Shown one piece after another: positions 11,605 through 64,000 of a stretch of DNA of 64,000 bases. The position numbers were made by a program, and so were the translations under genes. The DNA is from an uncultured Alphaproteobacteria bacterium (GTDB taxonomy: Bacteria > Pseudomonadota > Alphaproteobacteria > Rhodobacterales > Rhodobacteraceae). How positions within the stretch are numbered: the stretch's first letter is position 1; each line of letters starts with the position of its first letter. The DNA lies in the NCBI GenBank assembly GCA_902540655.1, contig CACBNQ010000003.1:8599-72598 (forward strand). The letters are read 5' to 3'. The notes under the pieces are model-generated. The model was not told the DNA's origin. It saw only the letters and a program-made list of their open reading frames with translations, and ran no database searches.

Positions 11605-11617
11605 AACCCAAACTCCC

Positions 11618-15759: not shown

Positions 15760-17043
15760 CTACACTGTTAATTTATGGAGTGTTATTTTTTTATCTCTTC
15801 CCCGAACCTCAAAATTCTTTACTTCTTCTGTAGGTAAGTTTTCACTGAGTCGCAATTTAACTTCGTCAGAAATTAAAACATCGGATTTCACCTCTTTACA
15901 CGCCTCACAAATTCTACTGGCTACGTTAACGGTATCTCCAATGACTGTGAATTCTACACGGTCTTCACTTCCGACGTTTCCAACGAAGCAAGAACCATAA
16001 TGAACACCAACGCGATGTCTGATAGCGGGCAAATCATTTTCAGACCGTTCTTTCTCCCATTCTCGCATTGAGATTTGCATCTGTCTTATACAATTTAAAG
16101 CGTTTTGAGCATCATTCCCTCTAGAAACAGGTGTACCAAACGTCGCCATGACGCTATCACCAATAAATTTATCAACGGATCCTCCATTTTGGAAAACTGC
16201 AGCAACCATTTTTGTTTGGTACTCCGAAAGTAAATTAAGTACCTCCTTAGGTTCCAAGCCCTCAGATAGCTTAGTAAAATCAGAAATATCAGTAAACATT
16301 ACGGCTATGTTTTGCTCTTTTTCAGAATTTTGATTGAAATCAAGCTTATTTTTTTCAATCTCATCTCTTACTTCAGGTGAAAAATATCTTCCTAGCAGAT
16401 TATTAGATCTTTCTTGAAGAGTTGCTTCTCTAAGATTGCTTTCAATAACCCATGCTAGGGTAACCAATCCAACAGCCACTACAATTAAATAAGTAATATT
16501 TTGACCGAATATCCCTCCATTTATTGCATTAATATTTGTTGCTATCTCATTGTAATTAAACGAAAAAAATACCTCTCCTCGATTGTATGTACTGAATGCT
16601 TGGAGAAGCGCAATGGCAAAGTTGTATACAATAAAAAATATAGATAAATAGAACCTAGCAAATAAAATAGATACAACCATAGGTCCGGCAGCCCCCACAA
16701 AAGCATAATCCATCAATCTTGCTCCAAAAAGTTCATTTGCACCTACCATTGAAAACTCATAATTTATGACTGCACCAAAAAGTAAGGGGAAAGCTATCTG
16801 CATAGCCACAGCAAAGAAAAGACAAATATTATAATTCTCGTCCTTAATAAGTGTAGCTATAGCACCAAAGGTAATAAAACCAGTTACCATGATAACAGTA
16901 GATAATTGCTTTACGAGCAAAGTTTCGAGTCCAGGAACAAAAGTAATATTAAGAAAACCAATAAGGTATAAACCAAACAAGGTTATTGAGGCTAACCTAA
17001 GGCCTTTTACATATCGCTTGTTTATAAAAAGCTCGTTTTCCAT
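15760..17043 (-). CDS. Membrane-anchored class III adenylate/guanylate cyclase
   Basis: About 6 N-terminal TM helices. Catalytic domain motifs VMFTDISDFTKL, FIGDSVMATFG, RVGVHYGSCFVGNVG and VIGDTVNVASR. Confidence 0.9.
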   Translation of the reverse strand: MENELFINKRYVKGLRLASITLFGLYLIGFLNITFVPGLETLLVKQLSTVIMVTGFITFGAIATLIKDENYNICLFFAVAMQIAFPLLFGAVINYEFSMVGANELFGARLMDYAFVGAAGPMVVSILFARFYLSIFFIVYNFAIALLQAFSTYNRGEVFFSFNYNEIATNINAINGGIFGQNITYLIVVAVGLVTLAWVIESNLREATLQERSNNLLGRYFSPEVRDEIEKNKLDFNQNSEKEQNIAVMFTDISDFTKLSEGLEPKEVLNLLSEYQTKMVAAVFQNGGSVDKFIGDSVMATFGTPVSRGNDAQNALNCIRQMQISMREWEKERSENDLPAIRHRVGVHYGSCFVGNVGSEDRVEFTVIGDTVNVASRICEACKEVKSDVLISDEVKLRLSENLPTEEVKNFEVRGRDKKITLHKLTV

Positions 17044-17144
17044 CTTTACTAAATAAGTTTATAATATGGACCATGTTCTTATAAATACGGACACTAAGCA
17101 AGTGTTGAGTGCAAACAATTACACAAAAAAGAGTTTAAGTGGAA

Positions 17145-19046
17145 TTAAGAGGAGATGCCTGCCTTCTCCAAAGTGTTAGCAAGCTTTCCCATGAAAGGTC
17201 TATCCATAATAATAAAGGTTTTCATGGCTCTTCTTAATTTTTTAAAATTAACACTACCATCGATTTTTAATATCCTTTCGGCTACTTTCTTAGCGTCATT
17301 TGACCTACCCTCTTCCATATCTATAAAGGCCCTGATTCCAAGAGCCCCTATTTGTGACCCTCCAAAATATTGTTCATTTTCTGATAAATCAGACGCCAAC
17401 TTATAGGCTTTCTCATACTCTTTCAAATATGTAAGAGCCAAAGCATAGTTTAACTTTACATTTCCTGGTGGATGAGGAGCTACTTTTAAAGCTTTTTCAT
17501 AATTTTCAACCGCCTGGTCATACAGGCCTACGATAAAAAGAGAATTTGCGGCAGATAGAATACTGATTATATTAGAAGGATTTAAATCTGATGCTTTTAT
17601 CGCAAACTTTCTTGCAGCATCAAACAACTCATCTTCGGTGTACTCCGGAAACTCTTTTGGGTTTTTTGCCATAAGTCCCGCTAAAAGACTATTAGCATCT
17701 GATAAATCTGGACCGTATTGAACTGCTCGCCGAGCAGTTTCTATCATATCTTTACCAATATTCCAATCACGTAGCCCAACACTCGCTTGGGCAGTAAAAT
17801 ACCAAGCATACATAGATAGAACAACGGGGTTATTTGGTTCTGTTTCAAAAATAGCATCAAATAGAGTTCCAGCCTCTTTTACTCCGTCTAGTGACATTGA
17901 AAGCCAAAGAGAATTCGCTTTTAAAAATCTTTGCCAATTTTCAGGACTCTTAAAATATCTTCTGTCGTCATCAAAGGATGTACCTAACGTCAATTTAACT
18001 TGTAATTTTTCTAAAACTTTTTCGGAAATCGTATCTTGAATTTCAAATATATCTTTAAGTTTGAAATCATATTTGTTTGTCCAGACAATTCTGTTCTTTA
18101 CGATGTCTGAAAGTTCGACTGTAGTTCTAATTTTTTCTCCTGAAACTTGGTTATAGCCTCTTAAGATGTAATTTACAAAATATTCATTTTTTATTTCTTG
18201 ATCAGACATACCTTTTTTCTTTATGAAATTACTAGTGCTGCTTGATTGCACTAAAAGTCTTGGATAACCAGCCAATGAAGAGATAATTATATCAGTCATC
18301 CCACTACTGAGCTGGTCGTCTGATTTATTTCCTGATCTATTTTCAAATGGCATTACTAAAACCATTGGCCTATCGGACTCGGCAATAATTTGTTCAGCAT
18401 TCTTTATTTCCGTATCGTCATTTAAATAAAAGGAAAATACACCTATAACTGATACTAAAATGCCTGCAGCTAGAATACTTATAAGATCTTTTGACCGCCT
18501 AGGCTTCAGAGATCTTTTTTGGGAAGGATCTAATACAATATCAAAAGCATGGAATTCATTTTGTTTTACTTTTTGAATGCCAAGATCATTGAATTGATGT
18601 TTTGTTTTACCTTTCACATAATCAAAAACACTCTTAGATACTGAGATTCCGCCCGCTAATGCTAATGCTTCTAGTCGAGCTGCTATATTAACCCCTTCAC
18701 CTAATAAATTTCCCTTTTCCTTAATTACATCTCCCGTATTGATACCAATACGAAATTCTAGCGTAACTTTTGTAGATGATGATGCATAACTAGTTTTTAT
18801 CTTTTTTTGAAACTCGACAGCGCAATCGACCGCATCCACAGCGCTAACAAATTCCGCCATAAAAGAGTCGCCCCCCGAATTAAATAAATTGCCATTATAT
18901 TTTTTAAACAACCCTTTAAGTATCTTTTCATAAAACCTAAGACTTTTTACAGTCTCACTTTCATCTATTTCCATATGCTTACTGTAATTCACTACGTCAG
19001 TAGCAAAAATTACAGCAATCTTTCGGTCAATTTCCTTAGTGGGCAT
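17145..19046 (-). CDS. Class III adenylate cyclase fused to a TM segment and a periplasmic TolB-N-like/TPR region
   Basis: N-terminal cyclase domain (IFATDVVNYS, GGDSFMAEF, RIGINTGDV, GEGVNIAARLE), one TM (ILAAGILVSVIGVFSFYL), then TPR-like repeats (YEKAYKLA, YDQAVENYEKALKVAP). Confidence 0.85.
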   Translation of the reverse strand: MPTKEIDRKIAVIFATDVVNYSKHMEIDESETVKSLRFYEKILKGLFKKYNGNLFNSGGDSFMAEFVSAVDAVDCAVEFQKKIKTSYASSSTKVTLEFRIGINTGDVIKEKGNLLGEGVNIAARLEALALAGGISVSKSVFDYVKGKTKHQFNDLGIQKVKQNEFHAFDIVLDPSQKRSLKPRRSKDLISILAAGILVSVIGVFSFYLNDDTEIKNAEQIIAESDRPMVLVMPFENRSGNKSDDQLSSGMTDIIISSLAGYPRLLVQSSSTSNFIKKKGMSDQEIKNEYFVNYILRGYNQVSGEKIRTTVELSDIVKNRIVWTNKYDFKLKDIFEIQDTISEKVLEKLQVKLTLGTSFDDDRRYFKSPENWQRFLKANSLWLSMSLDGVKEAGTLFDAIFETEPNNPVVLSMYAWYFTAQASVGLRDWNIGKDMIETARRAVQYGPDLSDANSLLAGLMAKNPKEFPEYTEDELFDAARKFAIKASDLNPSNIISILSAANSLFIVGLYDQAVENYEKALKVAPHPPGNVKLNYALALTYLKEYEKAYKLASDLSENEQYFGGSQIGALGIRAFIDMEEGRSNDAKKVAERILKIDGSVNFKKLRRAMKTFIIMDRPFMGKLANTLEKAGISS

Positions 19047-26491: not shown

Positions 26492-27808
26492 TTAAGTGCC
26501 AGGGATCCAGTTGGTTCCGGCTAATGGCACTCCAGCCATTGCAGCCGACTCCACTGTTAAAGCGCATAAATCTTCTGGTTCTAAGTTTCTAAGATCATTT
26601 TTACCACAAGCTCTTGCAATGGTTTGTGCTTCCATAGTCATTACATTAAGGTAATTTGCCAACCGCCTCCCCCCTAGCTTAGGGTCCAAACGCTTAGACA
26701 GTTTTTTATCTTGAGTAGTTATTCCTGCAGGATCGAGACCTTCGTGCCAATCATCAAACGAACCAGCTTTTGTACCTAATTTTTCATAATCTTTCTGATA
26801 CCTAGGATCATTGTCTCCAAGTGCAATCAAAGCAGCAGACCCAATCGATACTGCATCAGCACCTAAAGCCAATGCTTTTGCTACATCAGCACCATTCCTT
26901 ATTCCTCCTGAAATAATGAGCTGTACCTTTCTATGCAAGCCTAATTCCTGCAATGCTCTTACCGCGGGCCTTACACACGCCAGCGTGGGCATACCTACAT
27001 TTTCGATAAATACCTCTTGAGTCGCTGCTGTACCTCCTTGCATTCCGTCGACAACCACGACATCGGCACCAGATTTGGCAGCTAGAGCAACATCATAATA
27101 TGGTCTGGAACCAGCAACTTTTACAAAAATAGGAACCTTCCATCCAGTAATTTCTCTCAACTCTAGTATCTTGATCTCCATATCGTCTGGCCCTGTCCAA
27201 TCAGGATGCCTACATGGTGATCTTTGATCAATTCCTTTTGGCAGCGTTCGCATCTCCGCAACTCTATCATTTATCTTTTGACCAAGTAACATTCCTCCAC
27301 CACCTGGCTTTGCACCCTGACCCACAACGATTTCGATTGCATCAGCCTTTCTAAGGTCATCAGGGTTCATTCCATATCTAGAGGGAAGAAGTTGATAAAC
27401 TAACTGCTTTGAGTGACCTCTTTCCTCTTTTGTCATTCCTCCATCACCTGTTGTTGTTGACGTTCCAACCAAACTAGCACCTCTTCCTAAAGCCTCTTTT
27501 GCTTGTGCGGATAGCGCTCCGAAGCTCATTCCTGCTATAGTAATTGGAATTTCAAGATTAAGAGGATTAGAACTAAATCGGTCACCCAGGATCACTTTTG
27601 TATTGCAAGATTCTCTGTAGCCCTCCAAAGGATACCTAGAAATTGAAGCTCCAAGAAATAATAAATCATCAAAGTTTGGTAAATTTCTTTTAGATCCCCC
27701 TCCCCTTATGTCATATATACCAGTCTCAGCTGCTCTTCTAATTTCAGAGTTTGTATATGCATCGAAAGTATGCGAAGTTCTTGGTTCTGTTATTGATTTC
27801 TTTTTCAC
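26492..27808 (-). CDS. FMN-binding glutamate synthase family protein (GltB central-domain homologue; GlxD/MgsC-like)
   Basis: VGQGAKPGGGG, ISGGIRNGADVAKALALGADAV and an FMN/Fe-S-domain-like TIM-barrel sequence. Confidence 0.85.
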   Translation of the reverse strand: MKKKSITEPRTSHTFDAYTNSEIRRAAETGIYDIRGGGSKRNLPNFDDLLFLGASISRYPLEGYRESCNTKVILGDRFSSNPLNLEIPITIAGMSFGALSAQAKEALGRGASLVGTSTTTGDGGMTKEERGHSKQLVYQLLPSRYGMNPDDLRKADAIEIVVGQGAKPGGGGMLLGQKINDRVAEMRTLPKGIDQRSPCRHPDWTGPDDMEIKILELREITGWKVPIFVKVAGSRPYYDVALAAKSGADVVVVDGMQGGTAATQEVFIENVGMPTLACVRPAVRALQELGLHRKVQLIISGGIRNGADVAKALALGADAVSIGSAALIALGDNDPRYQKDYEKLGTKAGSFDDWHEGLDPAGITTQDKKLSKRLDPKLGGRRLANYLNVMTMEAQTIARACGKNDLRNLEPEDLCALTVESAAMAGVPLAGTNWIPGT

Positions 27809-27817
27809 GTAATTTTC

Positions 27818-28495
27818 CTAATATATTTTAGCATTATCTACATTAAAGTTATAAAGTGAACGAGCAGAGCCAAACCGCCTAAAGGTATCTGGATTATAAT
27901 CAGAAACATTAGCATTTGATAAAATATTTTCTAAATTACTAAGATGCTTTTTTGTCATTTTTTTCTCAATACAATCTGCACCTAAAGAGGCAACTTCACC
28001 GGCGACATATATATTTGCTTCGTATATGCTATCCCCTAAAGCATGTCCAGCATTACCGAAAATAACCAAATTCCCCTTCTGTGCCATGAAGGCAGACATG
28101 TGGCCAACATTTCCCTTCACAATGATGTCTACACCCTTCATTGAAATACCACATCTTGAAGATGCATTTCCTTCGACTAAGATACTTCCTCCATGTCCCG
28201 AAGCTCCTGCATATTGACTTACATCACCGGTAACATGAATGTTACCTGACATCATATTTTCGCCTAACCCTGGGCCAGCTGATCCTTCAACTTTGATATC
28301 AGATAATTTATTCATTCCTGCAAAGTAATATCCAACACTACCAACAACTTTCACAGTAATCTGTTTATTAATACCAACAGCTAACGCGTGGCTTCCTTTT
28401 GGATTTCTAATAGAAAAAAAGCTATTTTTATCAGATCCTTGCAAAGTCTTATTAATGTCTCTCAAGGACAATTTATTAAAATCAAGAATATTCAT
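27818..28495 (-). CDS. GXGXG-motif protein (GltB C-terminal domain homologue; GlxC/MgsB-like)
   Basis: Repeated beta-helix G-x-G-x-G strings (VKVVGSVGYYFAGM, IKVEGSAGPGLGENM, IHVTGDV, ILVEGNA, IIVKGNVGH). ATG 28495 is preferred over the track TTG at 28510. Confidence 0.85.
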   Translation of the reverse strand: MNILDFNKLSLRDINKTLQGSDKNSFFSIRNPKGSHALAVGINKQITVKVVGSVGYYFAGMNKLSDIKVEGSAGPGLGENMMSGNIHVTGDVSQYAGASGHGGSILVEGNASSRCGISMKGVDIIVKGNVGHMSAFMAQKGNLVIFGNAGHALGDSIYEANIYVAGEVASLGADCIEKKMTKKHLSNLENILSNANVSDYNPDTFRRFGSARSLYNFNVDNAKIY

Positions 28496-28497
28496 TT

Positions 28498-29394
28498 TTA
28501 ATGTCCCCAAAAATAAACAGTGGCGGGCTCTGGCTCCCAGACCTTAGCCTTTTCTATTTTTGGTAAAGAGGTTAAGGCTCTATACTCGGACCCAAAAGCT
28601 ACATAATCAGGGGTCTCTGCAAGTACAGCGGGCTTGCAGGCGATCGGATCTCTTAGAACGCCAAAACCGTTTTCCGTACCAACAACGAACGTATAAAAAC
28701 CATCAAGCTCTACAAGTGCGCTTTCCAAAGCTTCTTTAAGCGTTTTTCCACTATTCATTCTGTAAGTAATAAAGCTGGCAGCTACCTCAGAGTCATTTTC
28801 TGTTTCAAAAGTCATCTCTTTTCTCATTAATTCTCTTCGAAGAGAGTTATGATTTGATAGCGACCCATTATGCACCAAACATTGATCTTCACCCGTGGAG
28901 AATGGATGTGCACCAAGTGTTGTAACTTCAGATTCTGTTGCCATACGGGTATGCCCAATACCGTGGGAACCCTTCATTTTAGCTATATCAAATCTTTTTA
29001 CTACTTCAGCAGGCCTGCCTACCTCTTTATAAATTTCCATTTTTTTACCGACACTTAATATTCTCAAATTGGGGAAGGTGTCATTTATTAGATTGATAAC
29101 CTTATCTTTTTGCTTCACGTCAAGCTTTATGACTGCATGTGTGGAATGAGTTTCAAAACTGAATGATATTTCTTTCTTAGTCGATAAAAACTTTTTTAGC
29201 TTTTGAAAATCATCCTCGGGGGACTGAGACTGAACCATTATTTTAGCTCTCTTTGCAATTGGCTTCCCAAAAATCGCTAATCCAGCACTATCGGGACCTC
29301 TATCGCTCATACTTTCAAGCATTTTTGATAGATGAAGTCCTAGATTTGCAGATATATTCTTTTTTTTTGCGTATAGACCAACTATCCCACACAT
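28498..29394 (-). CDS. Class II (Ntn) glutamine amidotransferase-like protein (GltB N-terminal domain homologue; GlxB/MgsA-like)
   Basis: N-terminal MCGIVGL with the catalytic Cys2. HTRMATES and HNGSLSNH blocks. Confidence 0.85.
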   Translation of the reverse strand: MCGIVGLYAKKKNISANLGLHLSKMLESMSDRGPDSAGLAIFGKPIAKRAKIMVQSQSPEDDFQKLKKFLSTKKEISFSFETHSTHAVIKLDVKQKDKVINLINDTFPNLRILSVGKKMEIYKEVGRPAEVVKRFDIAKMKGSHGIGHTRMATESEVTTLGAHPFSTGEDQCLVHNGSLSNHNSLRRELMRKEMTFETENDSEVAASFITYRMNSGKTLKEALESALVELDGFYTFVVGTENGFGVLRDPIACKPAVLAETPDYVAFGSEYRALTSLPKIEKAKVWEPEPATVYFWGH

Positions 29395-54925: not shown

Positions 54926-55690
54926 TTACATTCTTCTTTCTCTGATATCAGAAATAATTAGTTCAAGCTCCTCTAAAGGTATAAAGCCTGGAAAAAATTT
55001 ACCCTCGATAATAAATAGGGGTGTACCAGAAAAGCCTATTCGTCTTGCTAGTGCGGTAGATTTTGCTATATGGTTTATTACGAATTCACTTTCCATATCT
55101 TTTTTCAAGCTAGCGATATCAATCTCTAAATTTTTTGCTATTTCAAAAATTTTAGTCTCAGTTAGACTACCTTCCTTCATAAGCCGCCAATGATATTCTT
55201 TGTACTTGCCTTGTGCAATTGATGCTAAAGCCGCTTTTGCAGCAATAACACTATTATTGTTTAAAATAGGCCACTCGCGTGGAATAAATTTTATGTTCTC
55301 ATCAGATTTTATTAAATCTTGAAGATCCTTTGCGGCCGTTTTGCAATACGGACAGTTATAATCAAAGAATTCAACAAGCGTAATATCTCCGGTTGGATTA
55401 CCAATAACAACTGTATCTTCAGTGTCAGTCAGTTCTGAACTATATTCTCTGATAAGATTTGAGACATTATCATTTCTTTGCTGTTCTTCCCTAGCTTGAA
55501 GAATCCTAGAAGCCTCTCGCAGTATTTCAGGATTTTCGAGCAATGCTTCCAGTGCTAACTTTTTTATTGTTGCCATCTCATTTTCTGAAAAGCTGTTGTT
55601 TCTTTTATCTTGAGCAAATAAAGGTATGGTTACAAAAACATAAACTACGAAAAAGATGGTGTATGAGATACATTTAAGCTTCATAAGCAT
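54926..55690 (-). CDS. DsbA-family thiol:disulfide oxidoreductase, exported
   Basis: Signal/anchor segment and the thioredoxin-fold active site FFDYNCPYCK. Confidence 0.85.
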   Translation of the reverse strand: MLMKLKCISYTIFFVVYVFVTIPLFAQDKRNNSFSENEMATIKKLALEALLENPEILREASRILQAREEQQRNDNVSNLIREYSSELTDTEDTVVIGNPTGDITLVEFFDYNCPYCKTAAKDLQDLIKSDENIKFIPREWPILNNNSVIAAKAALASIAQGKYKEYHWRLMKEGSLTETKIFEIAKNLEIDIASLKKDMESEFVINHIAKSTALARRIGFSGTPLFIIEGKFFPGFIPLEELELIISDIRERRM

Positions 55691-57069
55691 TAGGAACTAA
55701 GACTCCCAATCTTATGAAATAGTTGCCGATATGCCTCCTGCCCTTTATAAAAACTAGATAATCGGAAAAATTCATTAGGCGCATGCCAGTTTTCGTCATT
55801 AAGTTGAAAAGAAAATGTTGTTGTATAGACGCCTAAAAATCGGTAAAAAGCAGAAAGAATGGGAATTGAGCCTCCAACTCTTATAATGTATGGATCTTTT
55901 CCATAAATATTTTTAAGCACCTCTTTTGCCAATTTCATCGAATTCAAGTCACTGGGGATTAATAAGGGATCGCCTTGATCTTGAAGCGGTATAACCTTAC
56001 CAATGACTCCCGATGGCAGATGTTTTTCAACATGTTTCTCAATCTTTTTAAGTATCTCTTTTGGTTTTTGATCTGCTACTAAACGACAAGTTATTTTTGC
56101 AAAGGCTTTGGAAGGTAGAACCGTTTTAGTACCTGCTCCTTGATAACCACCCGAAATACCATTTAAATCAATAGTAGGGCGTGCGCTTACTCGCTCTAAT
56201 GGTGTATAGGCAATTTCACCATCTAAACAAATGGCGCCTGTCTGTTCTACAAATTTTTTCTCATCAAAAGGAACTCTTGATATCTCCTCTTTGTCTTTAG
56301 AAGTAAGAGGAACAACTTCATCATAAAAACCTTCAACAGCGATCTCTCCGTTATCATTCTTCATGGAAGCGATCAATTGTGATAATGCCATTACAGGATT
56401 TGCAATCGCCGCACCATACAATCCCGAATGCTTGTCGGTATCTGGACCAGTTACCTCAATATCAAAACCTAATATACCTTTATAAGCTACTGCCAATTCA
56501 CACTCATCTTCAGAAAACTGACCACCATCAGCTGAAAAAATCATGTCACAGGTCAGTTTGTCAACATTTTTGGAGACAAATTCAGGCATGTTTGGTGAGG
56601 CCACTTCTTCTTCCCCTTCAAAAATGAATTTGATGTTGAAGGGGAAAGTCTCCGACGTTTTAAATATTGACTCAAACACAACGATAGGTATGAACATGGA
56701 ACCCTTATCATCAGAAGCTCCTCTCCCAAAAATTTTATTATCTTTAATAATCGGTTTGAAGGGATCAATATCCCACAATTCAAGCGGATCTACAGGTTGA
56801 ACATCATAATGACCATATATAAGTACCGTAGGTTTATCACTTCCGGCATGCAACCAATCACCATAAACTGCAGGTTGCCCACCAGTATCCATTAGCTCCA
56901 CATTGTCTATGCCAGCTTTTAACATTCGCTCTTTTAACCAGGCCGCAGCTCTTTGAACGTCTTTAGAATGTTCTGGCAAAGCAGCAATCGAAGGTATAGA
57001 TATAAAATCTAACAAATCATTATTAAATTTTTCTCTATTTTCTGTTAGATATTTTTGATCATTTTTCAT
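55690..57069 (-). CDS. M20 family dipeptidase/peptidase
   Basis: GHYDVQP, GRGASDDKG and FEGEEE metal-ligand blocks. Confidence 0.85.
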   Translation of the reverse strand: MKNDQKYLTENREKFNNDLLDFISIPSIAALPEHSKDVQRAAAWLKERMLKAGIDNVELMDTGGQPAVYGDWLHAGSDKPTVLIYGHYDVQPVDPLELWDIDPFKPIIKDNKIFGRGASDDKGSMFIPIVVFESIFKTSETFPFNIKFIFEGEEEVASPNMPEFVSKNVDKLTCDMIFSADGGQFSEDECELAVAYKGILGFDIEVTGPDTDKHSGLYGAAIANPVMALSQLIASMKNDNGEIAVEGFYDEVVPLTSKDKEEISRVPFDEKKFVEQTGAICLDGEIAYTPLERVSARPTIDLNGISGGYQGAGTKTVLPSKAFAKITCRLVADQKPKEILKKIEKHVEKHLPSGVIGKVIPLQDQGDPLLIPSDLNSMKLAKEVLKNIYGKDPYIIRVGGSIPILSAFYRFLGVYTTTFSFQLNDENWHAPNEFFRLSSFYKGQEAYRQLFHKIGSLSS

Positions 57070-57214: not shown

Positions 57215-58087
57215 TTAATTGTAATAGAAACTAACCGAATGTTTAGCCTCAGCAAAAAATAACCATCTTGAAAAATAAATTCCTACAAAATGAATGCCTA
57301 TCACAAAAACGCTTACACTAAAGTTACTAGGAAACATTAAAATTAATAACATTGGCAAAACAAATGCCGCAAAGAAAGAGATATATCTTATTTTTATCGC
57401 ATGTTTCCTAGCAACTTTATAAACCATCTCATTAAGCAAATAATTTCTATTAGTATGAGCAACATCAAAAGCTCTGATATCTTCATTTTTACTAAATCCC
57501 AAAGCGGTACCAACACTCGTTTCTTTATATATAAAACTTTGGTCAGCAATATACCAAAACAAGACTTGAAGAACTGCAAAAATCAATAGCAAAACTAAGC
57601 TAGCGTAATCCAATAATAGAATTGAGCCACCTGCCAAAGCTGTAAAAATAAAAAGAGCAGGCGTTAACAAATTATTCCAAGATGGCACGGTTTTTAACTG
57701 TGCATAAATCATGGAAGTAGTAAAAATAGTAAATAAAGATAAAAGAAATAATATAATGCCAACCTCGTTGATATATCGATTTTGTACAAAAACCCAACCA
57801 ATGTTTCCTACAACAATCGATAGGCAGAAGATCGAGGAAATTGCCTCTCGACTTAACCAGCTAGTTTGCCATTGAGACATGGATTTGATTGCATTTTTTT
57901 TGTTTGCAAGATGAAAAAAAGAGGAAATCAATCCAATAATTGAAAAAAAAAGACCAATTACAGAAAAAATCACAATATCAACCGTGCTGATCTGATTCAA
58001 AAATTGTAGCAGTCCAACAATTGAAATCAGCCCAAAACCGAAACCAGAAAGAACAGTAAAAAGGATTATTGATGGAGCAGGATGCAT
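57215..58087 (-). CDS. DmsC-like membrane anchor subunit of a molybdopterin oxidoreductase
   Basis: About 8 TM helices, with N-terminal HPAPSIILFTVLSGFGFG resembling the DmsC/YnfH start. 1-nt overlap with the Fe-S subunit gene. Confidence 0.7.
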   Translation of the reverse strand: MHPAPSIILFTVLSGFGFGLISIVGLLQFLNQISTVDIVIFSVIGLFFSIIGLISSFFHLANKKNAIKSMSQWQTSWLSREAISSIFCLSIVVGNIGWVFVQNRYINEVGIILFLLSLFTIFTTSMIYAQLKTVPSWNNLLTPALFIFTALAGGSILLLDYASLVLLLIFAVLQVLFWYIADQSFIYKETSVGTALGFSKNEDIRAFDVAHTNRNYLLNEMVYKVARKHAIKIRYISFFAAFVLPMLLILMFPSNFSVSVFVIGIHFVGIYFSRWLFFAEAKHSVSFYYN

Positions 58088-58830
58088 TAGAATTTACTAA
58101 GAGCTCTATCCACCCAACCAAGTAGCCCTGTAGCATCTGTTTCCTCCTCAACAACTGACCCAACAGAGCTGACAGAATTCTTAGACTTTATTCTAGGAAG
58201 TAGATATTTATTAACTGGTTTTGTTTGCATTTCAGGCATAAGATCAACTCCACCTCTCTCTTTGACCTTCTTTGAAACATCTGAATTAGGGTCATTGAAA
58301 TCACCAAATGCTCTTGCGCCAGTGGGACAACTCTTTACACACACAGGCACTCTGTCCTCTGGTGGAAGCTCTTCACTATAAATTCTATCAACACACAAAG
58401 TACACTTTTTCATCACACCGCTCACTAAATCTAGCTCTCGAGCTCCATAGGGACACGCCCAAGCACAAAGCCCACAGCCCATGCAATCATATTCATTTAC
58501 AAGAACTATCCCATCTTCTTCTCTCTTGTAACTTGCTCCTGTCGGGCAAACAGTCACACAAGGTGCATCTTCACAGTGAAGGCAAGATCTTGGAAAGTAA
58601 AACGTCTCAGCTTCATTCGTACAGCTGTTTTCTCTCTCATATGAATGAACTCGATTTAAAAAAGTACCAACTGGACCCTTCTGATGAGAGTTGATATCAC
58701 TTAACTGCTTTTCGCCTCCTGATGAATTCCACTCTTTACAACTCACTACACATCCGTGACATCCAACACAAGTATCAAGATCAATTAAAAGCCCTAATTT
58801 TTTATCTTCGCATTTAGGTAATTTTGTCAA
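58087..58830 (-). CDS. 4Fe-4S ferredoxin-type electron-transfer subunit (DmsB-like)
   Basis: Four Cys clusters: CVGCHGCVVSC, CLHCEDAPCVTVCP, CMGCGLCAWACP and CTLC...CVKSCP. Confidence 0.9.
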   Translation of the reverse strand: MTKLPKCEDKKLGLLIDLDTCVGCHGCVVSCKEWNSSGGEKQLSDINSHQKGPVGTFLNRVHSYERENSCTNEAETFYFPRSCLHCEDAPCVTVCPTGASYKREEDGIVLVNEYDCMGCGLCAWACPYGARELDLVSGVMKKCTLCVDRIYSEELPPEDRVPVCVKSCPTGARAFGDFNDPNSDVSKKVKERGGVDLMPEMQTKPVNKYLLPRIKSKNSVSSVGSVVEEETDATGLLGWVDRALSKF

Positions 58831-58837
58831 TTCTTAC

Positions 58838-61636
58838 TCATTTCTTTTTATCTACCCCAACATTTACAGGAGAGCTCAATACTGGAAACTGCGGGAGAGA
58901 TACGTTACTGGGGTTGTCCACCTTCTCAATGTTAACTAATAGGTCATACCATGCAGCTTGTCCAGTAATAGGATCAGAATTACTATATCTGTAGCCGCTA
59001 TCATTCTTGGGCAAGAGATCAGAAATGAGGTGATTTATTATAAAACCTTTATTAGCCTCCTCCACATTTTCATCTAGAGCCCAAGATCCTTTTCTTTTGC
59101 CAATTGCGTTCCATGTCCATACTGTATCTTCATTCTGGCTCTTCATAAGCGCAACCGGAACAACTATTGATGAATTTTCCGACGTTAATCTAGCCCAGTC
59201 TCCATCTTTAAAATTCTTTTCTTTCCAAATACCTTTAGACACAAATAATTTGTTAGAACCATGAATTTGTCTCAACCAAACATTCTGACTGCCCCAACTA
59301 TGATACATCGCTGCGGGTCTCTGTGTAATTGCATGTATAGGATATTGTTTGACTTTTTTTGGATCATGATTTGACCACCAAATTGGTAATGGATCCATTT
59401 TTTCGTCAATTCTTTTATACAAATGCTCCTGAGGTTTCAAATTAACTGGCAATTGGTGGTAATTTTGCAACTTTGCTAGTGGTTCTAAATAGATTTGAAA
59501 GACAAAAGGCTCTTCTTTATCGTAGAAACCCATTTCAACAGCCCACTTTTGATATGCTTTATTCCATGGTTTATAATATTGAGCTTCGTCGGGTATTTTT
59601 TCACTCCAAAAACCGCCATTCTTTATATAATTGTCAATTTGATTTAAGCTAATGTCTCCTCGGCCACAATCTGTATTAGTCTCACCTCTAAATCCTGCTA
59701 AAGGCCCAATGCCCGGGCGTCTCTGATGCCTCTGCATGTAATCAGCGTAATCCTCATATAATGGCCGCTTGTCGCTGTCTACCATTCCTGGTAGCTCCAG
59801 CATAACGCCAAGTTGCAGCAAAACATCTTGAAAACTTCTCACATCTCTATCTGGCTTAACAACTGGCCAGCGTATTGCATCACTAACTTGATCCGGCTCA
59901 CCTATAGGCCGATCCAATAACGATATACAATCATATCTTTCTAAATATGTCGTATCTGGCAAAATAAGATCAGCATAGGCAACAGTCTCCGAGTAATAGC
60001 TATCGGAGTATATTATCCTAGGGATTCTATACGCGCCTGAGTCAGGGTCTCGTTCTGTTAATTTCTTGATTGTTTCCTCGGTATTCATAGAGGAATTCCA
60101 TGCCATATTTGCCATGTAGAGAAATAACGTATCTATTTTATAAGGATCTCCACTGTGACAATTAGATATTACAGTATGCATTAATCCATGTGAAGACATA
60201 GGGTTTTCCCATGTAAAACCTTTATCAATTCTTGCTGGCTTACCATCCTTAGTATAAGCTAAGTCTTCGGGTCCACTTATATATCCAAGATGAGGTCCAT
60301 CTAATTCACTATCAGGACTAAATTTAAAATGTGGTCTAGGGTGCGCATCAAACGGCTTAGGATAAGGCGGTTTATACCGAAATCCGCCTGGAACATCAAC
60401 GCTACCAATTAAAATTTGAAGCAAGTGTATAGCTCGGCAGGTTTGAAATCCATTGGAGTGCGCTGAAATACCTCTCATCGCATGGAAACTAACCGGCCTG
60501 CCGGTGAACCCCAACCTTTTTTTCCCTCTAAAGTCCACCCAACTTTGATCAATGTATATTGACTTGTTAAACGCAGTTATAGCTATATCATCGGCCAACC
60601 TTAATATTTGCTCTTCCTTCAATCCGCACTGCGGTGCAACTAATTTTGGAGAATATGCGTTATCCAAATATTTTTCAGTTAACAAACTAAATACAGTCTT
60701 ATAGGAACCATCTTCATTTGAATAAGACTTGGTCAAAGATGGCCTCACTCCCTTATCTGAAAATCTCTTTAATTCACCAGAAAAATGATCTATCACAAGA
60801 GGACAGCCTTCTTTATCTCTTAAAAACAATCCCTTGCTATCATTAGTTGATGTAACACTCACAAGGAATGGTGAATTTGTAAAACTTTGCAAATAATCTA
60901 AATCAATTTTTTTCTTTTTAAGCAGCGTATGCACAATCGAAAGAACCAAGAGGCCATCGGTTCCTGGGCGTATCCCTAACCATTGATCTGCAACTGAATT
61001 ATAGCCAGTCCTTACTGGATTAATTGCGATAACTTTTGCACCTCTATTTTTCAACTTTCCTAACCCTCTTTTAATAGGATTACTGTCATGATCTTCTGCC
61101 ACACCAAAAAGAAGCATTAGCTCTGTTTTATCCCAATCAGGAGAACCAAATTCCCAAAATGAACCTCCCATAGTATAAATACCTGCAGCAGCCATATTTA
61201 CAGAACAAAAGCCGCCATGAGCTGCGTAGTTGGGTGTGCCAAACTTTTGTGCCCACCAACCAGTAAATGACTGAGATTGATCTCGACCAGTATAAAAGAC
61301 AAGTTTTTCTGGCGATTTTTTACGAATGGGAGATAACCACTCAACCGCTATCTTAAGAGCCTCATCCCAGGATATCTCTTCAAACTTCCCCTCTCCACGC
61401 TCACCAACCCTACGTAGTGGCTTTTTTAGCCTAGAGGCTGCTTTATGCTGAAAAATACCAGAAGCACCTTTCGCACATAAAACACCCTTATTTACTGGAT
61501 GATCTCTATTACCTTCTATATGAACGACTTCATTGTCTTTTATATGCACATCAATGCCACAGCGACACGCACACATATAACAAGTTGTTTTAGAAACTTT
61601 TACAAGGCTTTCAGTGGCGTAAACTTCTTTATCCAT
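58838..61636 (-). CDS. Molybdopterin (bis-MGD) oxidoreductase catalytic subunit, no Tat signal
   Basis: N-terminal Fe-S motif CYMCACRCG...(x26)...C. MopB-type domains. A likely Cys Mo ligand in AHGGFCSVN. 932 aa. The N-terminus MDKEVYATESLVK has no twin-arginine motif. Confidence 0.85.
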   Translation of the reverse strand: MDKEVYATESLVKVSKTTCYMCACRCGIDVHIKDNEVVHIEGNRDHPVNKGVLCAKGASGIFQHKAASRLKKPLRRVGERGEGKFEEISWDEALKIAVEWLSPIRKKSPEKLVFYTGRDQSQSFTGWWAQKFGTPNYAAHGGFCSVNMAAAGIYTMGGSFWEFGSPDWDKTELMLLFGVAEDHDSNPIKRGLGKLKNRGAKVIAINPVRTGYNSVADQWLGIRPGTDGLLVLSIVHTLLKKKKIDLDYLQSFTNSPFLVSVTSTNDSKGLFLRDKEGCPLVIDHFSGELKRFSDKGVRPSLTKSYSNEDGSYKTVFSLLTEKYLDNAYSPKLVAPQCGLKEEQILRLADDIAITAFNKSIYIDQSWVDFRGKKRLGFTGRPVSFHAMRGISAHSNGFQTCRAIHLLQILIGSVDVPGGFRYKPPYPKPFDAHPRPHFKFSPDSELDGPHLGYISGPEDLAYTKDGKPARIDKGFTWENPMSSHGLMHTVISNCHSGDPYKIDTLFLYMANMAWNSSMNTEETIKKLTERDPDSGAYRIPRIIYSDSYYSETVAYADLILPDTTYLERYDCISLLDRPIGEPDQVSDAIRWPVVKPDRDVRSFQDVLLQLGVMLELPGMVDSDKRPLYEDYADYMQRHQRRPGIGPLAGFRGETNTDCGRGDISLNQIDNYIKNGGFWSEKIPDEAQYYKPWNKAYQKWAVEMGFYDKEEPFVFQIYLEPLAKLQNYHQLPVNLKPQEHLYKRIDEKMDPLPIWWSNHDPKKVKQYPIHAITQRPAAMYHSWGSQNVWLRQIHGSNKLFVSKGIWKEKNFKDGDWARLTSENSSIVVPVALMKSQNEDTVWTWNAIGKRKGSWALDENVEEANKGFIINHLISDLLPKNDSGYRYSNSDPITGQAAWYDLLVNIEKVDNPSNVSLPQFPVLSSPVNVGVDKKK

Positions 61637-61650
61637 ATTTTTCTTTTAGA

Positions 61651-61893
61651 TTAATCTTTAGTATTTATTTCTATTAATTGTTGGTCTTCATCGACCATTT
61701 CGCCTTCAACTACAAAAATAGAGACAACCGAGCCAGAAACATTTGAAACAACGGGGATTTCCATTTTCATAGATTCAATAACTATCACGTCTTGACCAGA
61801 TTCAACAACATCCCCAACTTTACAATTAATTTTCCAAATCGATCCTGATATTTCTGACAAAAGAATAGCTCTTCCCACAGTGTTTCCCCTCAA
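61651..61893 (-). CDS. Stand-alone biotinyl/lipoyl-attachment domain protein (BCCP-like)
   Basis: 80 aa with VIESMKMEIPV (the E-x-M-K-M biotinylation-type motif) in a hammerhead-like beta fold. 14 nt upstream of the Mo-enzyme gene, same strand. Confidence 0.75.
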   Translation of the reverse strand: MRGNTVGRAILLSEISGSIWKINCKVGDVVESGQDVIVIESMKMEIPVVSNVSGSVVSIFVVEGEMVDEDQQLIEINTKD

Positions 61894-61979
61894 TAAATGA
61901 ATTACAACCTAACGTAATTAAAAAATATTTAAAAGATTTAAAAAAAATATTAACATAAAAATTGTATTGGGAGAGTCAA

Positions 61980-63278
61980 ATGCGGGCACCTTCTTTTAAA
62001 AATAAAATAAATCCTGGCAAGGCTCCAGAAAAAATCAATGTTTTTTCTGAACCGACAGAACTAGCTCTAAAAGAATGGAATAATAAAGGCTTACAATTGC
62101 CGGACGTATCTATAATTAATTCATATAGAAAGGAACAAGTCGTAACGCAATTAAAGAAGAACAGAGTCGATGCCATTTTGCTTTTTGACCCATTAAATAT
62201 TAGGTACGCAACTGGCACATCAAATATGCTTTTGTGGAATACACATAACCCTTTTAGATCCTGCTTAATTTTTGATGACGGCCACTGTATTCTTTGGGAT
62301 TACCAAGAAAGCACGCATTATTTAGAATCCAATTATCTGTACGTCGATGAAGTTAGAACTGGCGCATCCATGTTTTATTTTGCAAAAGGAGATAAAGTGA
62401 AGTCTGCCGCTGAAGATTTTTCTCATCAAGTAAGTCAATTCTTCGAAAAAAAAAGAAAAAACAATAAGAAATTGGCGATAGATAAAATAATGCTCGATGG
62501 GTTTAAAAGTCTAGAAAGTAGAGACTTTAAAATCGAAAATGGAGAAAAAATAATGGAGCATGCGCGATCGATAAAATCTGCCGAAGAGATAAAAGCTATG
62601 AGATGCTCTATTTCGGCGTGTGAAACCTCAATACATGTTATGGAGAAAGAAACAAAGCCAGGTATGACTGAAAATGATATCTGGTCAATTCTTCATTCGG
62701 AAAACATTAAAAGAGGTGGAGAGTGGATTGAAACTCGATTACTCTCGTCCGGTACCAAAACAAACCCCTGGTTTCAGGAATGTGGCTCTAGAATACTTCA
62801 GAATAATGAAATAGTGGCTTTTGATACTGATCTAGTTGGTTGTTACTCGATGTGCACTGATATTTCTAGAACATGGTGGATAGGAGACCAAGAGCCAACA
62901 AAGGAAATGAAACAAGATTATCAAATAGCATTGGAACATATCCAAAAGAATGCTGAACTTGTTGCTCCTGGTGTTCACTTTAACGATTTAACGTTCAAAG
63001 GACATCAACTTGATGATATGTATAAAAAACAACAATACAGTTGCAGGTTTCACGGTGTTGGGCTGTGCGACGAGTTTCCTCTAATAACATATCCAGAGGA
63101 CTATGAAGAGGGTGCTTTTGATTATGTCCTTCAGCCAGGAATGACGTTATGTGTAGAGGCATTAATCAGCCGTGAAAACGGCGACTTTTCAATTAAGCTT
63201 GAAGATCAATTACTTGTAACAGATAGTGGATTTGAAAATCTTACCTCTTATCCATTCGATGAAAAGTTTCTAAATTAA
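61980..63278 (+). CDS. M24 family metalloenzyme, DddP-like (candidate DMSP lyase; alternatively a creatinase/Xaa-Pro peptidase/ectoine-hydrolase-type enzyme)
   Basis: Pita-bread-fold metal ligands are present (track numbering D288-x-D290, D300, H364, E399, E414). The N-terminal block LLFDPLNIRYATGTSNMLLWNTHNPFR resembles DddP as I recall it. ATG 61980, preceded by GGGAGAG, is preferred over the TTG at 61962. Confidence 0.6.
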   Translation: MRAPSFKNKINPGKAPEKINVFSEPTELALKEWNNKGLQLPDVSIINSYRKEQVVTQLKKNRVDAILLFDPLNIRYATGTSNMLLWNTHNPFRSCLIFDDGHCILWDYQESTHYLESNYLYVDEVRTGASMFYFAKGDKVKSAAEDFSHQVSQFFEKKRKNNKKLAIDKIMLDGFKSLESRDFKIENGEKIMEHARSIKSAEEIKAMRCSISACETSIHVMEKETKPGMTENDIWSILHSENIKRGGEWIETRLLSSGTKTNPWFQECGSRILQNNEIVAFDTDLVGCYSMCTDISRTWWIGDQEPTKEMKQDYQIALEHIQKNAELVAPGVHFNDLTFKGHQLDDMYKKQQYSCRFHGVGLCDEFPLITYPEDYEEGAFDYVLQPGMTLCVEALISRENGDFSIKLEDQLLVTDSGFENLTSYPFDEKFLN

Positions 63279-63284
63279 TCCTCT

Positions 63285-64000
63285 TTAAATTTTACCTTCT
63301 GTTAAAAACACAAGAGCAAACGAGTCCTTATTTATCTCGAAAATTTGGTTTTCTGTGGCATACATCAAGGCTGCAATGCCTGCACCCCCGGAAGGGCTAG
63401 TTGTTATTCCAAAATCATTTATAAATTTCAGTTTTTTCTCGACATAATCATCTTCCAAGTGCATGAAATAATTGGCTGTCTTTGAAAGCGAATAAAATGC
63501 CGACCAGGATGGCTCTTTGCAATCTAAACGCCCCATTGTTGACACTTGGCCTTCGGCAACACTTGGTTTTTCATTTTGCAAAGACACAAACAAGGTCTTT
63601 GCTTGACTAGGCTCAACAACAATTATCTGTGCATCTTGCCTTAAAAACTTTCGAAGGGATAAGGCAATGGCAGCCGCAAATCCACCAACTCCTGCCTGCA
63701 AAAAAACATGTGTTATTTGATTTAAATTATGTGATGATAATTGTTTGCGAACCTCTTCACCTATAATCATGTATCCTTCCATAACATCAACGCCCGACTG
63801 ACAAGTTTCCCAAGTTGAGTCAGATAATAAAACATAATTATTCTTACGTGCATATTTTTCGGCCTCAATCATACTTACCTCGTAGGTATCCCCTTTAAAC
63901 TTGACATCTGCCCCTATGTTTTCAAGCTGATCTGCAAAAGCTTTAGGTACGTTCTTTGAAATAAAAACAATCGCATTTGCACCAAATAATTTAGCTCCTA
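63285..64000 (-). CDS. PLP-dependent beta-family enzyme (diaminopropionate ammonia-lyase/threonine-dehydratase-like), 5' end off the window
   Basis: The reading frame stays open upstream of the track Met (63872) to the window edge (...GAKLFGANAIVFISKNVP...). GVGGFAAA glycine loop and the SW..C....VMEGY block are typical of the fold-type II DAP ammonia-lyase group. Confidence 0.65.
   Translation of the reverse strand, partial: GAKLFGANAIVFISKNVPKAFADQLENIGADVKFKGDTYEVSMIEAEKYARKNNYVLLSDSTWETCQSGVDVMEGYMIIGEEVRKQLSSHNLNQITHVFLQAGVGGFAAAIALSLRKFLRQDAQIIVVEPSQAKTLFVSLQNEKPSVAEGQVSTMGRLDCKEPSWSAFYSLSKTANYFMHLEDDYVEKKLKFINDFGITTSPSGGAGIAALMYATENQIFEINKDSFALVFLTEGKI

What the first reader, a model, noticed from the sequence alone, without database searches (positions are those of the whole stretch)
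57215..61893. DmsABC-like molybdoenzyme without a Tat signal, co-transcribed with an orphan biotinyl/lipoyl-domain protein
The sequence shows four co-directional genes with 14-, 7- and -1-nt junctions. They are an 80-aa BCCP-like domain protein (ESMKME), a 932-aa bis-MGD catalytic subunit, a 4x[4Fe-4S] subunit and a DmsC-type 8-TM anchor. The catalytic subunit has an N-terminal CxxCxxxC...C cluster and a probable Cys Mo ligand (HGGFCSVN). It starts MDKEVYATES... with no twin-arginine leader. DmsA/PsrA/TtrA-type enzymes with DmsC/NrfD-type anchors are normally Tat-exported and periplasm-facing, and cytoplasm-facing exceptions are few. Biotinyl domains normally accompany carboxylases or decarboxylases, and none is in the window. 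By inference this is either a cytoplasm-facing quinone-linked oxidoreductase for an unknown substrate, or one that uses the small swinging-arm domain in a new way. The large size of the catalytic subunit (about 150-200 aa more than many family members) also suggests extra domains.
Basis: partly seen in the sequence, partly recalled or inferred. Interest (0 to 1): 0.62.

Follow-up and report, generated by a model that had tools for sequence, protein, structure and literature searches.

The report
SoeABC sulfite dehydrogenase plus small BCCP
These genes encode SoeABC, the already known inward-facing molybdenum enzyme that turns toxic sulfite into sulfate, here in an abundant low-GC ocean roseobacter beside genes that release sulfite from organic sulfur compounds; the only unusual point is a small biotin-carrier gene that this one lineage has placed at the head of the operon.

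Summary
In detail: four tightly packed minus-strand genes encode a small biotinyl-domain protein, a 932-aa Mo-bisPGD subunit, a 4x[4Fe-4S] subunit and an 8-TM DmsC-type anchor. None has a Tat leader. The missing Tat signal is not an anomaly. The three large genes are SoeABC, the known cytoplasm-facing sulfite:quinone oxidoreductase. The catalytic subunit is 63% identical end to end to the Ruegeria protein in the published tauR-xsc-pta-soeABC cluster. The anchor has a strong N-in charge bias. In close relatives with identical synteny, sulfite-releasing Xsc and Pta lie about 3.6 kb upstream, and the DMSP lyase DddP is the divergent neighbour. The extra size is a family trait.

The small gene is real. 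It is probably 75 aa from a GTG start, its ESMKMEIP motif is invariant, and dN/dS is about 0.15-0.23. Metatranscriptome contigs span its junction with soeA. It was gained once, in a low-GC pelagic Paracoccaceae clade, and is absent from 84 other SoeABC loci examined. Its family (B. subtilis BLAP/YngHB type) consists of BCCP subunits of multi-piece carboxylases that are often scattered in genomes. It is therefore most likely a BCCP for an unlinked carboxylase. A SoeABC accessory role is not excluded. This is a new member of a known kind, of low to moderate interest.

The parts
61651..61878 (-). Small BLAP/BCCP-type biotinyl-domain protein, 75 aa from GTG 61878 (an alternative TTG at 61893 gives 80 aa). 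The attachment lysine lies in an invariant ESMKMEIP motif.
   Evidence: PF00364 4.5e-15. Best PDB match is B. subtilis BLAP 1Z6H, E 2.8e-15. An AGGGGA SD precedes the GTG. Homologues are 75 aa. The motif is invariant down to 41% identity. dN/dS is 0.15-0.23.
58838..61636 (-). soeA: Mo-bisPGD catalytic subunit, 932 aa, with an N-terminal [4Fe-4S] motif, Cys144 as probable Mo ligand, and no signal peptide.
   Evidence: Pfam and NCBIfam. 63% identity over 916 aa to Ruegeria sp. B32 SoeA. Aligned to PsrA. AF2 pLDDT 83, MopB fold.
58087..58830 (-). soeB: 4x[4Fe-4S] electron-transfer subunit, 247 aa, with no Tat leader.
   Evidence: Fer4_11 2.2e-25. Residue 8 aligns with position 35-40 of the TtrB, NrfC, DsrO and HybA models. 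59-67% identical to the soeB of named Rhodobacterales.
57215..58087 (-). soeC: 8-TM DmsC/NrfD-type quinone-interacting anchor with predicted N-in/C-in topology.
   Evidence: PF04976 1.7e-13. K+R is 13 on the termini side against 1 on the other; 62 of 62 homologues predicted with 8 TMs have the same polarity.
61879..61979 (.). AT-rich divergent intergenic region between dddP and the small gene; presumed promoter region of the four-gene operon.
   Evidence: Sequence. There is one weak sigma-70-like match on the minus strand at 61979-61952, not above chance. No terminator is predicted between the four genes. RNA contigs span 61107-61773.
61962..63278 (+). Context: dddP, a DMSP lyase of the M24 family, transcribed divergently from the operon (ATG at 61980 is also possible).
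   Evidence: NCBIfam NF043017 scores 620.9 bits against a cutoff of 600. The divergent pairing is conserved in L001 and L003-L006.

Best explanation
The three large genes encode SoeABC, a membrane-bound complex that faces the cytoplasm. SoeA (Mo-bisPGD, Cys-ligated, one [4Fe-4S]) oxidises sulfite to sulfate in the cytoplasm. Electrons pass through the four [4Fe-4S] clusters of SoeB to SoeC, an 8-helix anchor without cofactors, which reduces quinone on the cytoplasmic side. In this low-GC pelagic Paracoccaceae bacterium the enzyme removes, and gains energy from, sulfite released by organosulfonate breakdown. In close relatives with the same gene order, Xsc and Pta lie just beyond the window's end. 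The first gene of the operon encodes a 75-aa BLAP/BCCP-type carrier that is very probably biotinylated on the lysine of ESMKMEIP. It was inserted once, together with dddP and two other genes, between xsc-pta and soeA in the ancestor of this clade. It is co-transcribed with soeABC. Most likely it serves as the carrier subunit of a biotin-dependent carboxylase encoded elsewhere, and is not part of the sulfite dehydrogenase. Shown here: gene structure, absence of signal peptides, orthology to the Ruegeria soeABC cluster, synteny with xsc-pta, in-situ transcription across the junction, and single-clade distribution of the small gene. Inferred: sulfite as substrate, biotinylation, and the unlinked carboxylase partner.
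For: SoeABC identity. SoeA is 63% identical with 4 gaps to Ruegeria sp. B32 SoeA, which sits in tauR-xsc-pta-soeA-soeB-soeC. That is the order annotated as SoeABC in R. pomeroyi, SPO3562..SPO3557. No NCBIfam model for PhsA, DmsA, TtrA, ArrA or FdnG reaches its cutoff. SoeA and SoeB lack leaders. SoeC has a 13:1 positive-inside bias, and 62 of 62 homologues agree, matching the inverted orientation proposed for SoeC. Xsc (882 bits against a cutoff of 676) and Pta lie about 3.6 kb upstream in relatives with identical synteny. Xsc lies within 7 kb of soeA in 33 of 80 named alphaproteobacterial loci. The locus is transcribed in seawater metatranscriptomes.

Small gene. BLAP is the best solved relative and shares ESMKMEIP. 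BLAP is biotinylated by its cognate BirA, not lipoylated by cognate enzymes, and is thought to be the BCCP of a neighbouring carboxylase. Among 47 metagenome loci with standalone ESMKMEI proteins, 12 have a BCCP-less biotin carboxylase immediately adjacent. Others have only a carboxyltransferase or unrelated genes next door. The small gene is absent from 84 other SoeABC loci by tblastn, and from 83 of them also by HMM search. It was gained once, in a clade with SH-aLRT 100.
Against: I could not compare directly with the experimentally characterised A. vinosum or A. aeolicus SoeA; the link runs through the Ruegeria orthologue and the literature. Xsc and Pta are not inside the window itself. The small gene's adjacency to soeA survives divergence down to 41-44% identity of the small protein, with a 14-nt spacer and RNA contigs across the junction. 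That degree of conservation is more than chance placement would predict.
Confidence: 0.8

Rival explanations
1. The small biotinyl-domain protein is a lineage-specific fourth component of SoeABC. It could be a swinging-arm carrier, chaperone or regulator that docks on SoeA or SoeB.
For: It is the first gene of the operon with a 14-nt spacer. Metatranscriptome contigs from two studies span the junction. The adjacency is retained in both sub-lineages of the clade while the small protein diverges to 41-44% identity, and the motif stays invariant.
Against: It is absent from 84 other SoeABC loci, including the Ruegeria cluster, so SoeABC does not need it. SoeA in this clade has no clade-specific insertion relative to Ruegeria SoeA, only 4 gaps. 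The protein's family consists of ordinary BCCP subunits. No chemistry is known that links biotin to sulfite oxidation. The same synteny links it equally to dddP.
Confidence: 0.12
2. The small protein belongs functionally with its divergent neighbour dddP. It would serve a carboxylation step downstream of DMSP cleavage (acrylate to propionyl-CoA to methylmalonyl-CoA), and its co-transcription with soeABC is incidental.
For: The dddP/small-gene divergent pair is as conserved as the small-gene/soeA pair in every locus of the clade. DddP passes its NCBIfam cutoff.
Against: None of the 80 metagenome loci with related small proteins has dddP nearby. It is transcribed with soeA, not with dddP. I could not examine other roseobacters' dddP loci.
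Confidence: 0.08
3. The complex is not a sulfite dehydrogenase. It would be a cytoplasm-facing oxidoreductase for another substrate, such as another sulfur oxyanion or an organosulfur compound.
For: No enzyme of this alphaproteobacterial SoeA clade has been assayed in the papers I read. NCBIfam has no SoeA model, so the assignment rests on orthology and context.
Against: It is orthologous to the Ruegeria cluster annotated SoeABC. soeABC is transcriptionally induced under sulfur-oxidising conditions in Ruegeria. It is widely linked to the sulfite-releasing Xsc. The literature treats this family as the cytoplasmic sulfite oxidase.
Confidence: 0.05
4. The enzyme is periplasmic after all, through a missed Tat leader or by hitch-hiking on a partner.
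For: None found.
Against: An in-frame stop lies 12 nt upstream of the soeA ATG. The same start is found in all relatives. None of the four proteins has an RR motif. SoeC's charge bias places the SoeB-binding side in the cytoplasm.
Confidence: 0.01

Closest known systems
SoeABC sulfite:quinone oxidoreductase (Allochromatium vinosum Alvin_2491-2489; Aquifex aeolicus; annotated in Ruegeria pomeroyi as SPO3559-3557)
   Same: The three-subunit architecture is the same: a MopB subunit with FS0, a 4x[4Fe-4S] subunit, and a haem-free NrfD/DmsC-type anchor. There are no signal peptides. SoeA is about 930-970 aa. The genes are linked to cytoplasmic sulfite producers. SoeA is 63% identical to the Ruegeria orthologue.
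   Different: An extra 75-aa biotinyl-domain gene heads the operon in this clade only. In this clade xsc-pta is separated from soeA by four inserted genes: an alpha/beta-hydrolase, a PALP enzyme, dddP and the small gene.
Polysulfide reductase PsrABC (Thermus thermophilus, PDB 2VPZ/2VPW)
   Same: It is the closest solved structure by sequence (E 4.8e-38). The Cys Mo ligand aligns, the FeS and 8-TM anchor layout is the same, and the model's TM-score on PsrA is 0.76.
   Different: PsrA is Tat-exported and faces the periplasm, and it is about 170 aa shorter. It is only about 20% identical, and it works as a quinol-oxidising reductase, not a dehydrogenase.
DMSO reductase DmsABC (E. coli)
   Same: It has the same three-subunit CISM layout, and the anchor matches Pfam DmsC.
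   Different: DmsA has the SRRGLV Tat leader and a Ser Mo ligand (the ligand is from my own knowledge). The DmsA/YnfE model scores 130 bits against a cutoff of 778. The enzyme is periplasm-facing.
BLAP / YngHB, the single-domain biotin/lipoyl attachment protein of Bacillus subtilis (PDB 1Z6H)
   Same: Both are 72-75-aa standalone barrel-sandwich domains with an identical ESMKMEIP motif. BLAP is the best PDB match (E 2.8e-15).
   Different: yngHB lies among carboxylase subunit genes, whereas here no carboxylase gene is among the window ORFs scanned and the gene is co-transcribed with soeABC.

Membership tests
SoeABC (cytoplasmic sulfite:quinone oxidoreductase) | Three subunits: a Mo-bisPGD MopB protein with an N-terminal [4Fe-4S] motif, a 4x[4Fe-4S] protein, and a haem-free NrfD/DmsC-type membrane anchor. 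| tested here: met
   Pfam domains and Cys motifs; 8 predicted TM helices.
SoeABC (cytoplasmic sulfite:quinone oxidoreductase) | No Tat or Sec signal on SoeA or SoeB; peripheral subunits on the cytoplasmic (N) side. | tested here: met
   The N-termini start 25-40 residues into the PsrA, PhsA, DmsA, TtrB and NrfC models. There is an in-frame stop upstream and a clear contrast with the E. coli DmsA leader. SoeC K+R bias is 13:1 with termini inside, and 62 of 62 homologues agree.
SoeABC (cytoplasmic sulfite:quinone oxidoreductase) | Orthology to a protein already assigned as SoeA. | tested here: met
   63% identity over 916 aa with 4 gaps to Ruegeria sp. B32 SoeA, in the tauR-xsc-pta-soeABC order published for R. 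pomeroyi SPO3562-3557. The protein nests within Rhodobacterales SoeA in the tree.
SoeABC (cytoplasmic sulfite:quinone oxidoreductase) | Direct relationship to the experimentally characterised A. vinosum and A. aeolicus SoeA. | not testable with these tools
   Those sequences could not be fetched.
SoeABC (cytoplasmic sulfite:quinone oxidoreductase) | Genomic association with a cytoplasmic sulfite-generating pathway. | tested here: met
   Xsc (TIGR03457, 882 bits against a cutoff of 676) and Pta lie about 3.6 kb upstream in relatives with identical synteny. Xsc lies within 7 kb in 33 of 80 other loci. Xsc is not inside the window itself, which ends in the PALP gene.
SoeABC (cytoplasmic sulfite:quinone oxidoreductase) | Sulfite-dependent quinone reduction. 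| not testable with these tools
   This needs a biochemical assay.
Tat-exported DmsABC/PsrABC/PhsABC/TtrABC-type reductases | A twin-arginine leader on the catalytic (or FeS) subunit, and a score above the family model's cutoff. | tested here: not met
   There is no RR leader. The best NCBIfam scores are PhsA 188.6 against 694, DmsA/YnfE 129.8 against 777.7, and TtrA 104.7 against 1750.
BCCP/BLAP-type biotinyl carrier proteins | A biotinyl/lipoyl barrel-sandwich domain with the attachment lysine in an (A/S)MKM hairpin motif. | tested here: met
   PF00364 4.5e-15. ESMKMEIP is invariant across the clade and shared with BLAP.
BCCP/BLAP-type biotinyl carrier proteins | A partner biotin carboxylase and carboxyltransferase in the same genome. 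| not testable with these tools
   None is among the 44 window ORFs scanned. In related metagenome loci, 12 of 47 have an adjacent BCCP-less biotin carboxylase.
BCCP/BLAP-type biotinyl carrier proteins | Covalent biotinylation in vivo. | not testable with these tools
   This needs a streptavidin blot or mass spectrometry.

The most novel reading that the evidence does not exclude
In this abundant pelagic roseobacter clade the BLAP-like protein has been recruited as a fourth, lineage-specific partner of the cytoplasmic sulfite dehydrogenase. It could be a modified-lysine swinging arm or a small regulatory subunit that docks on SoeAB. That would be a use of a biotinyl/lipoyl domain outside carboxylases and 2-oxoacid or glycine-cleavage complexes.
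Probability: 0.12. Interest if true: 0.6.

Novelty: new member of a known kind. Interest (0 to 1): 0.22.

Why it matters
The assignment gives a firm annotation for a gene set that is abundant and expressed in surface seawater. The 90%-identity clusters hold 866 SoeA and 367 small-protein sequences, and many metatranscriptomes contain the locus. It places sulfite oxidation in an organosulfur island with dddP and xsc-pta in a streamlined roseobacter, which is relevant to marine sulfonate and DMSP cycling. It also removes a false lead: a Tat-less DmsABC-like enzyme is the normal state of SoeABC. The co-transcribed small BCCP is a cheap, testable curiosity. If it binds SoeABC it would be a new role for a biotinyl domain. 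If not, it is one more example of scattered subunits of multi-piece carboxylases in streamlined genomes.

Tried and rejected
1. Periplasmic enzyme with a hidden Tat leader or hitch-hiking: rejected because of the in-frame stop upstream and the absence of an RR motif in any subunit.

2. A link to biotin sulfoxide reductase (BisC), a cytoplasmic Mo enzyme that acts on biotin sulfoxide: rejected. The bisC_fam model scores only 61 bits over 66 residues, and SoeA has an FeS cluster and a Cys ligand, unlike BisC (the BisC features are from my own knowledge).

3. A lipoylated arm capturing sulfite as an S-sulfonate: considered, but made unlikely by the MKM motif and by the finding that BLAP is not lipoylated by cognate enzymes.

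4. Naming the divergent full-length representatives (P0242 and others) to reach A. vinosum or Aquifex: their clusters carry no useful names, and most hits of the representative search are fragments.

5. Profile search with the small-protein alignment to find outgroups: the top 120 hits were saturated by the clade itself.

6. PDB sequence search with SoeC: no meaningful hit.

7. E. coli DmsC as an opposite-polarity control for the topology script: uninformative, because DmsC has almost no loop K/R, 2 against 1.

9. Promoter and terminator scan: nothing above chance.

10. Literature search for soeABC together with a biotin carrier: one paper holds both terms, a peatland Acidobacteria preprint that I did not open.
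Full report
**Observation.** The window carries four co-directional minus-strand ORFs at 61893..57215, with junctions of 14 nt, 7 nt and a 1-nt overlap.
- Pfam assigns them to Biotin_lipoyl; Molybdop_Fe4S4 + Molybdopterin + Molydop_binding; the Fer4_11 dicluster families; and DmsC.
- The FeS protein has four Cys groups (read).
- The catalytic subunit has C19-x2-C22-x3-C26...C54. Its Cys144 aligns with Cys173 of T. thermophilus PsrA, which I recall as the Mo ligand.
- The small gene most likely starts at the GTG at 61878, which is preceded by AGGGGA. That gives 75 aa, the length of its homologues and of the gene call in public records.
- No biotin carboxylase or carboxyltransferase is among the 44 window ORFs scanned. 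Six further ORFs of 110 aa or more, at 9345-13793 and 26492-29394, were not scanned; they are described only in unchecked earlier notes as an MBOAT acylation module and a split GltB-like enzyme.

**No export signal.**
- The SoeA Cys cluster begins at residue 19. E. coli DmsA, fetched as a control, has the SRRGLV leader and its cluster starts near residue 62.
- Residue 13 aligns with residue 38 of PsrA and with positions 42-43 of the PhsA, DmsA and FdnG models.
- An in-frame TAA lies 12 nt upstream of the ATG, inside the 14-nt spacer.
- The FeS subunit starts at position 35-40 of the TtrB, NrfC, DsrO and HybA models.
- The small protein and the anchor have no leader either, so hitch-hiking is excluded.

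**What it is.** The closest named homologues (62-64% identity, 938-947 aa) come from Ruegeria, Roseibium and other marine Alphaproteobacteria, under generic names.
- In Ruegeria sp. B32 the homologue sits in the order tauR - xsc - pta - MopB(939 aa) - FeS - DmsC-type anchor. This is the order of SPO3562..SPO3557 in R. pomeroyi, where the last three genes are annotated soeA, soeB and soeC.
- The window protein is 63% identical to that Ruegeria protein over 916 residues with only 4 gaps.
- SoeABC is described as a sulfite:quinone oxidoreductase of A. vinosum and A. aeolicus, with SoeAB on the cytoplasmic side and SoeC inverted in the membrane. It is treated as the standard cytoplasmic sulfite oxidase of sulfur oxidisers, and it has been reported in pelagic roseobacters alongside dddP.
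- In Ruegeria, soeABC transcripts rise under sulfur-oxidising or stress conditions.
- No NCBIfam model for PhsA, DmsA, TtrA, ArrA or FdnG comes near its cutoff.

**Independent support for the orientation.** A hydropathy and charge analysis of the anchor predicts 8 TM helices, with 13 Lys+Arg on the side of the termini and 1 on the other side.
- All 62 homologues predicted with 8 helices have the same polarity, 845 against 37 in total.
- The E. coli DmsC control has almost no loop charges (2 against 1). It does not show the opposite polarity, but it shows that the bias is not a general property of the family.

**Context.** Relatives of the window's clade share one gene order: M16 peptidase | pta | xsc | alpha/beta-hydrolase | PALP enzyme | dddP, then divergently the small gene - soeA - soeB - soeC | M20 | DsbA-like | GDH | EamA.
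- The window shows this order from the PALP gene onward and ends there.
- The 591-aa TPP enzyme is Xsc (TIGR03457, 882 bits against a cutoff of 676). The M24 gene in the window is DddP (NF043017, 620.9 against 600).
- Among 80 SoeABC loci from named alphaproteobacterial genomes, 33 have Xsc within 7 kb upstream.
- The locus is thus part of an organosulfur island in which a sulfite-releasing enzyme and the sulfite oxidiser are linked.
- Seawater metatranscriptomes from many studies hold about 40% of the locus's sampled words.

**Size.** The roughly 170 extra residues relative to PsrA are shared by the whole SoeA family.
- An AlphaFold2 model (35-sequence alignment, pLDDT 83.3, pTM 0.88) is a MopB fold. 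Its best PDB matches are ArrA, PcrA and PsrA at 15-20% identity, with TM on the target of 0.72-0.76.
- The extra segments are confidently folded elaborations, not a new terminal domain.
- No SoeA structure appears in the PDB copy.

**The small gene.** It is a real coding gene under purifying selection. dN/dS is 0.15-0.23, similar to soeC at 0.12-0.15.
- Its ESMKMEIP motif is invariant even in the L001 lineage. There the protein is only 41-44% identical while SoeA is 74% identical.
- A third variant's C-terminus is visible just upstream of soeA on the truncated contig L090.
- Metatranscriptome contigs from two independent studies (61271-61772 and 61107-61773) run across the junction with soeA. 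DNA carry-over in such libraries cannot be excluded.
- In a SoeA tree the six loci that carry the small gene form one clade (SH-aLRT 100), nested within Rhodobacterales and sister to low-GC lineages without it.
- None of the 80 named loci, nor L002, L008, L009 or L091, has a related ORF within the flanks. This is by tblastn for all 84 and by profile HMM for all but L091.
- The gene was therefore gained once and kept, and SoeABC elsewhere works without it.

**What the small protein's family does.** Its best solved relative is B. subtilis BLAP/YngHB (E 2.8e-15).
- BLAP is biotinylated by its cognate BirA and is not lipoylated by cognate enzymes. It is thought to be the BCCP of a neighbouring acyl-CoA carboxylase.
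- A metagenome scan seeded on the conserved motifs returned 80 loci with proteins 39-56% identical. None lies near SoeABC or dddP, and 59 are standalone ORFs of at most 115 aa.
- Of 47 loci with complete neighbours, 12 have a BCCP-less biotin carboxylase immediately adjacent. Carboxyltransferase, enoyl-CoA hydratase and HMG-CoA-lyase genes recur.
- Individual loci show BC-BCCP-CT, BCCP-CT alone, or the small gene beside unrelated genes.
- An earlier unchecked note from this scan describes another genome with a 75-aa ESMKME BCCP whose carboxylase partners are scattered.
- By family, then, this is a carboxylase carrier subunit, and orphan placement is common.

**Verdict.** The Tat-less DmsABC-like enzyme is SoeABC, a known kind, and the lack of a signal peptide is its hallmark.
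- The small BCCP-type gene at the head of the operon is a clade-specific addition. My best estimate is that it serves an unlinked carboxylase, at about 55-60% when the dddP-linked variant is counted separately at about 8%. A SoeABC accessory role gets about 12%.
- The test that would decide this is a search of the clade's genome for a BCCP-less biotin carboxylase.
- The organism is a low-GC (36%) pelagic member of the Paracoccaceae/Roseobacter group. Its resemblance to the NAC11-7/HTCC2255 lineage is my recollection and was not tested.

Noticed in passing
window 61962-63278 (+), with relatives L003, L005 and L006: The M24 gene divergent from the operon is a DddP DMSP lyase that passes NCBIfam's equivalog cutoff (620.9 against 600). 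Together with xsc-pta in relatives, the region is an organosulfur island.
   Followed up: partly
window 63285-64000 (-), with L005 5724-7594: A PALP enzyme and a PcaD-like alpha/beta-hydrolase are strictly conserved between xsc and dddP in this clade. The PALP enzyme resembles diaminopropionate ammonia-lyase but scores below cutoff (247.8 against 276). The hydrolase hits TIGR02427 at 295 bits against a cutoff of 256. Their role in a sulfur-metabolite island is unexplained; the PALP enzyme could act on a sulfonated amino acid.
   Followed up: no
L090 (GCA_001757005.1 contig, 5609 nt): In this 74%-identity relative, soeB is followed by an M24-family gene instead of soeC. This could be a rearrangement or an assembly chimera.
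   Followed up: no
L004 9315-12114: soeA is split into two ORFs (620 + 321 aa) in a 2.06-Mb long-read-style contig, while the near-identical L003 is intact. This is probably a sequencing frameshift.
   Followed up: no
L114, L125, L141, L142, L159, L162, L167 (soil and other metagenome loci): There is a recurrent arrangement of BCCP-less biotin carboxylase, 70-aa ESMKMEI carrier, then a convergent TPP enzyme of about 550-600 aa (about 23% identical to Xsc). This may be an uncharacterised carboxylase/TPP-enzyme module.
   Followed up: no
window 5826-8902 and 15760-19046: Four genes with adenylate/guanylate cyclase catalytic domains lie within 13 kb, which is unusual for a streamlined genome.
   Followed up: no
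window 54926-57069 (-): An M20 dipeptidase (NF006053, 529 bits against a cutoff of 441) and a ScsC/DsbA-like thioredoxin-fold protein follow soeC co-directionally in the window's sub-clade. In L001 a TerC gene takes that place, so they are probably not part of the operon.
   Followed up: partly
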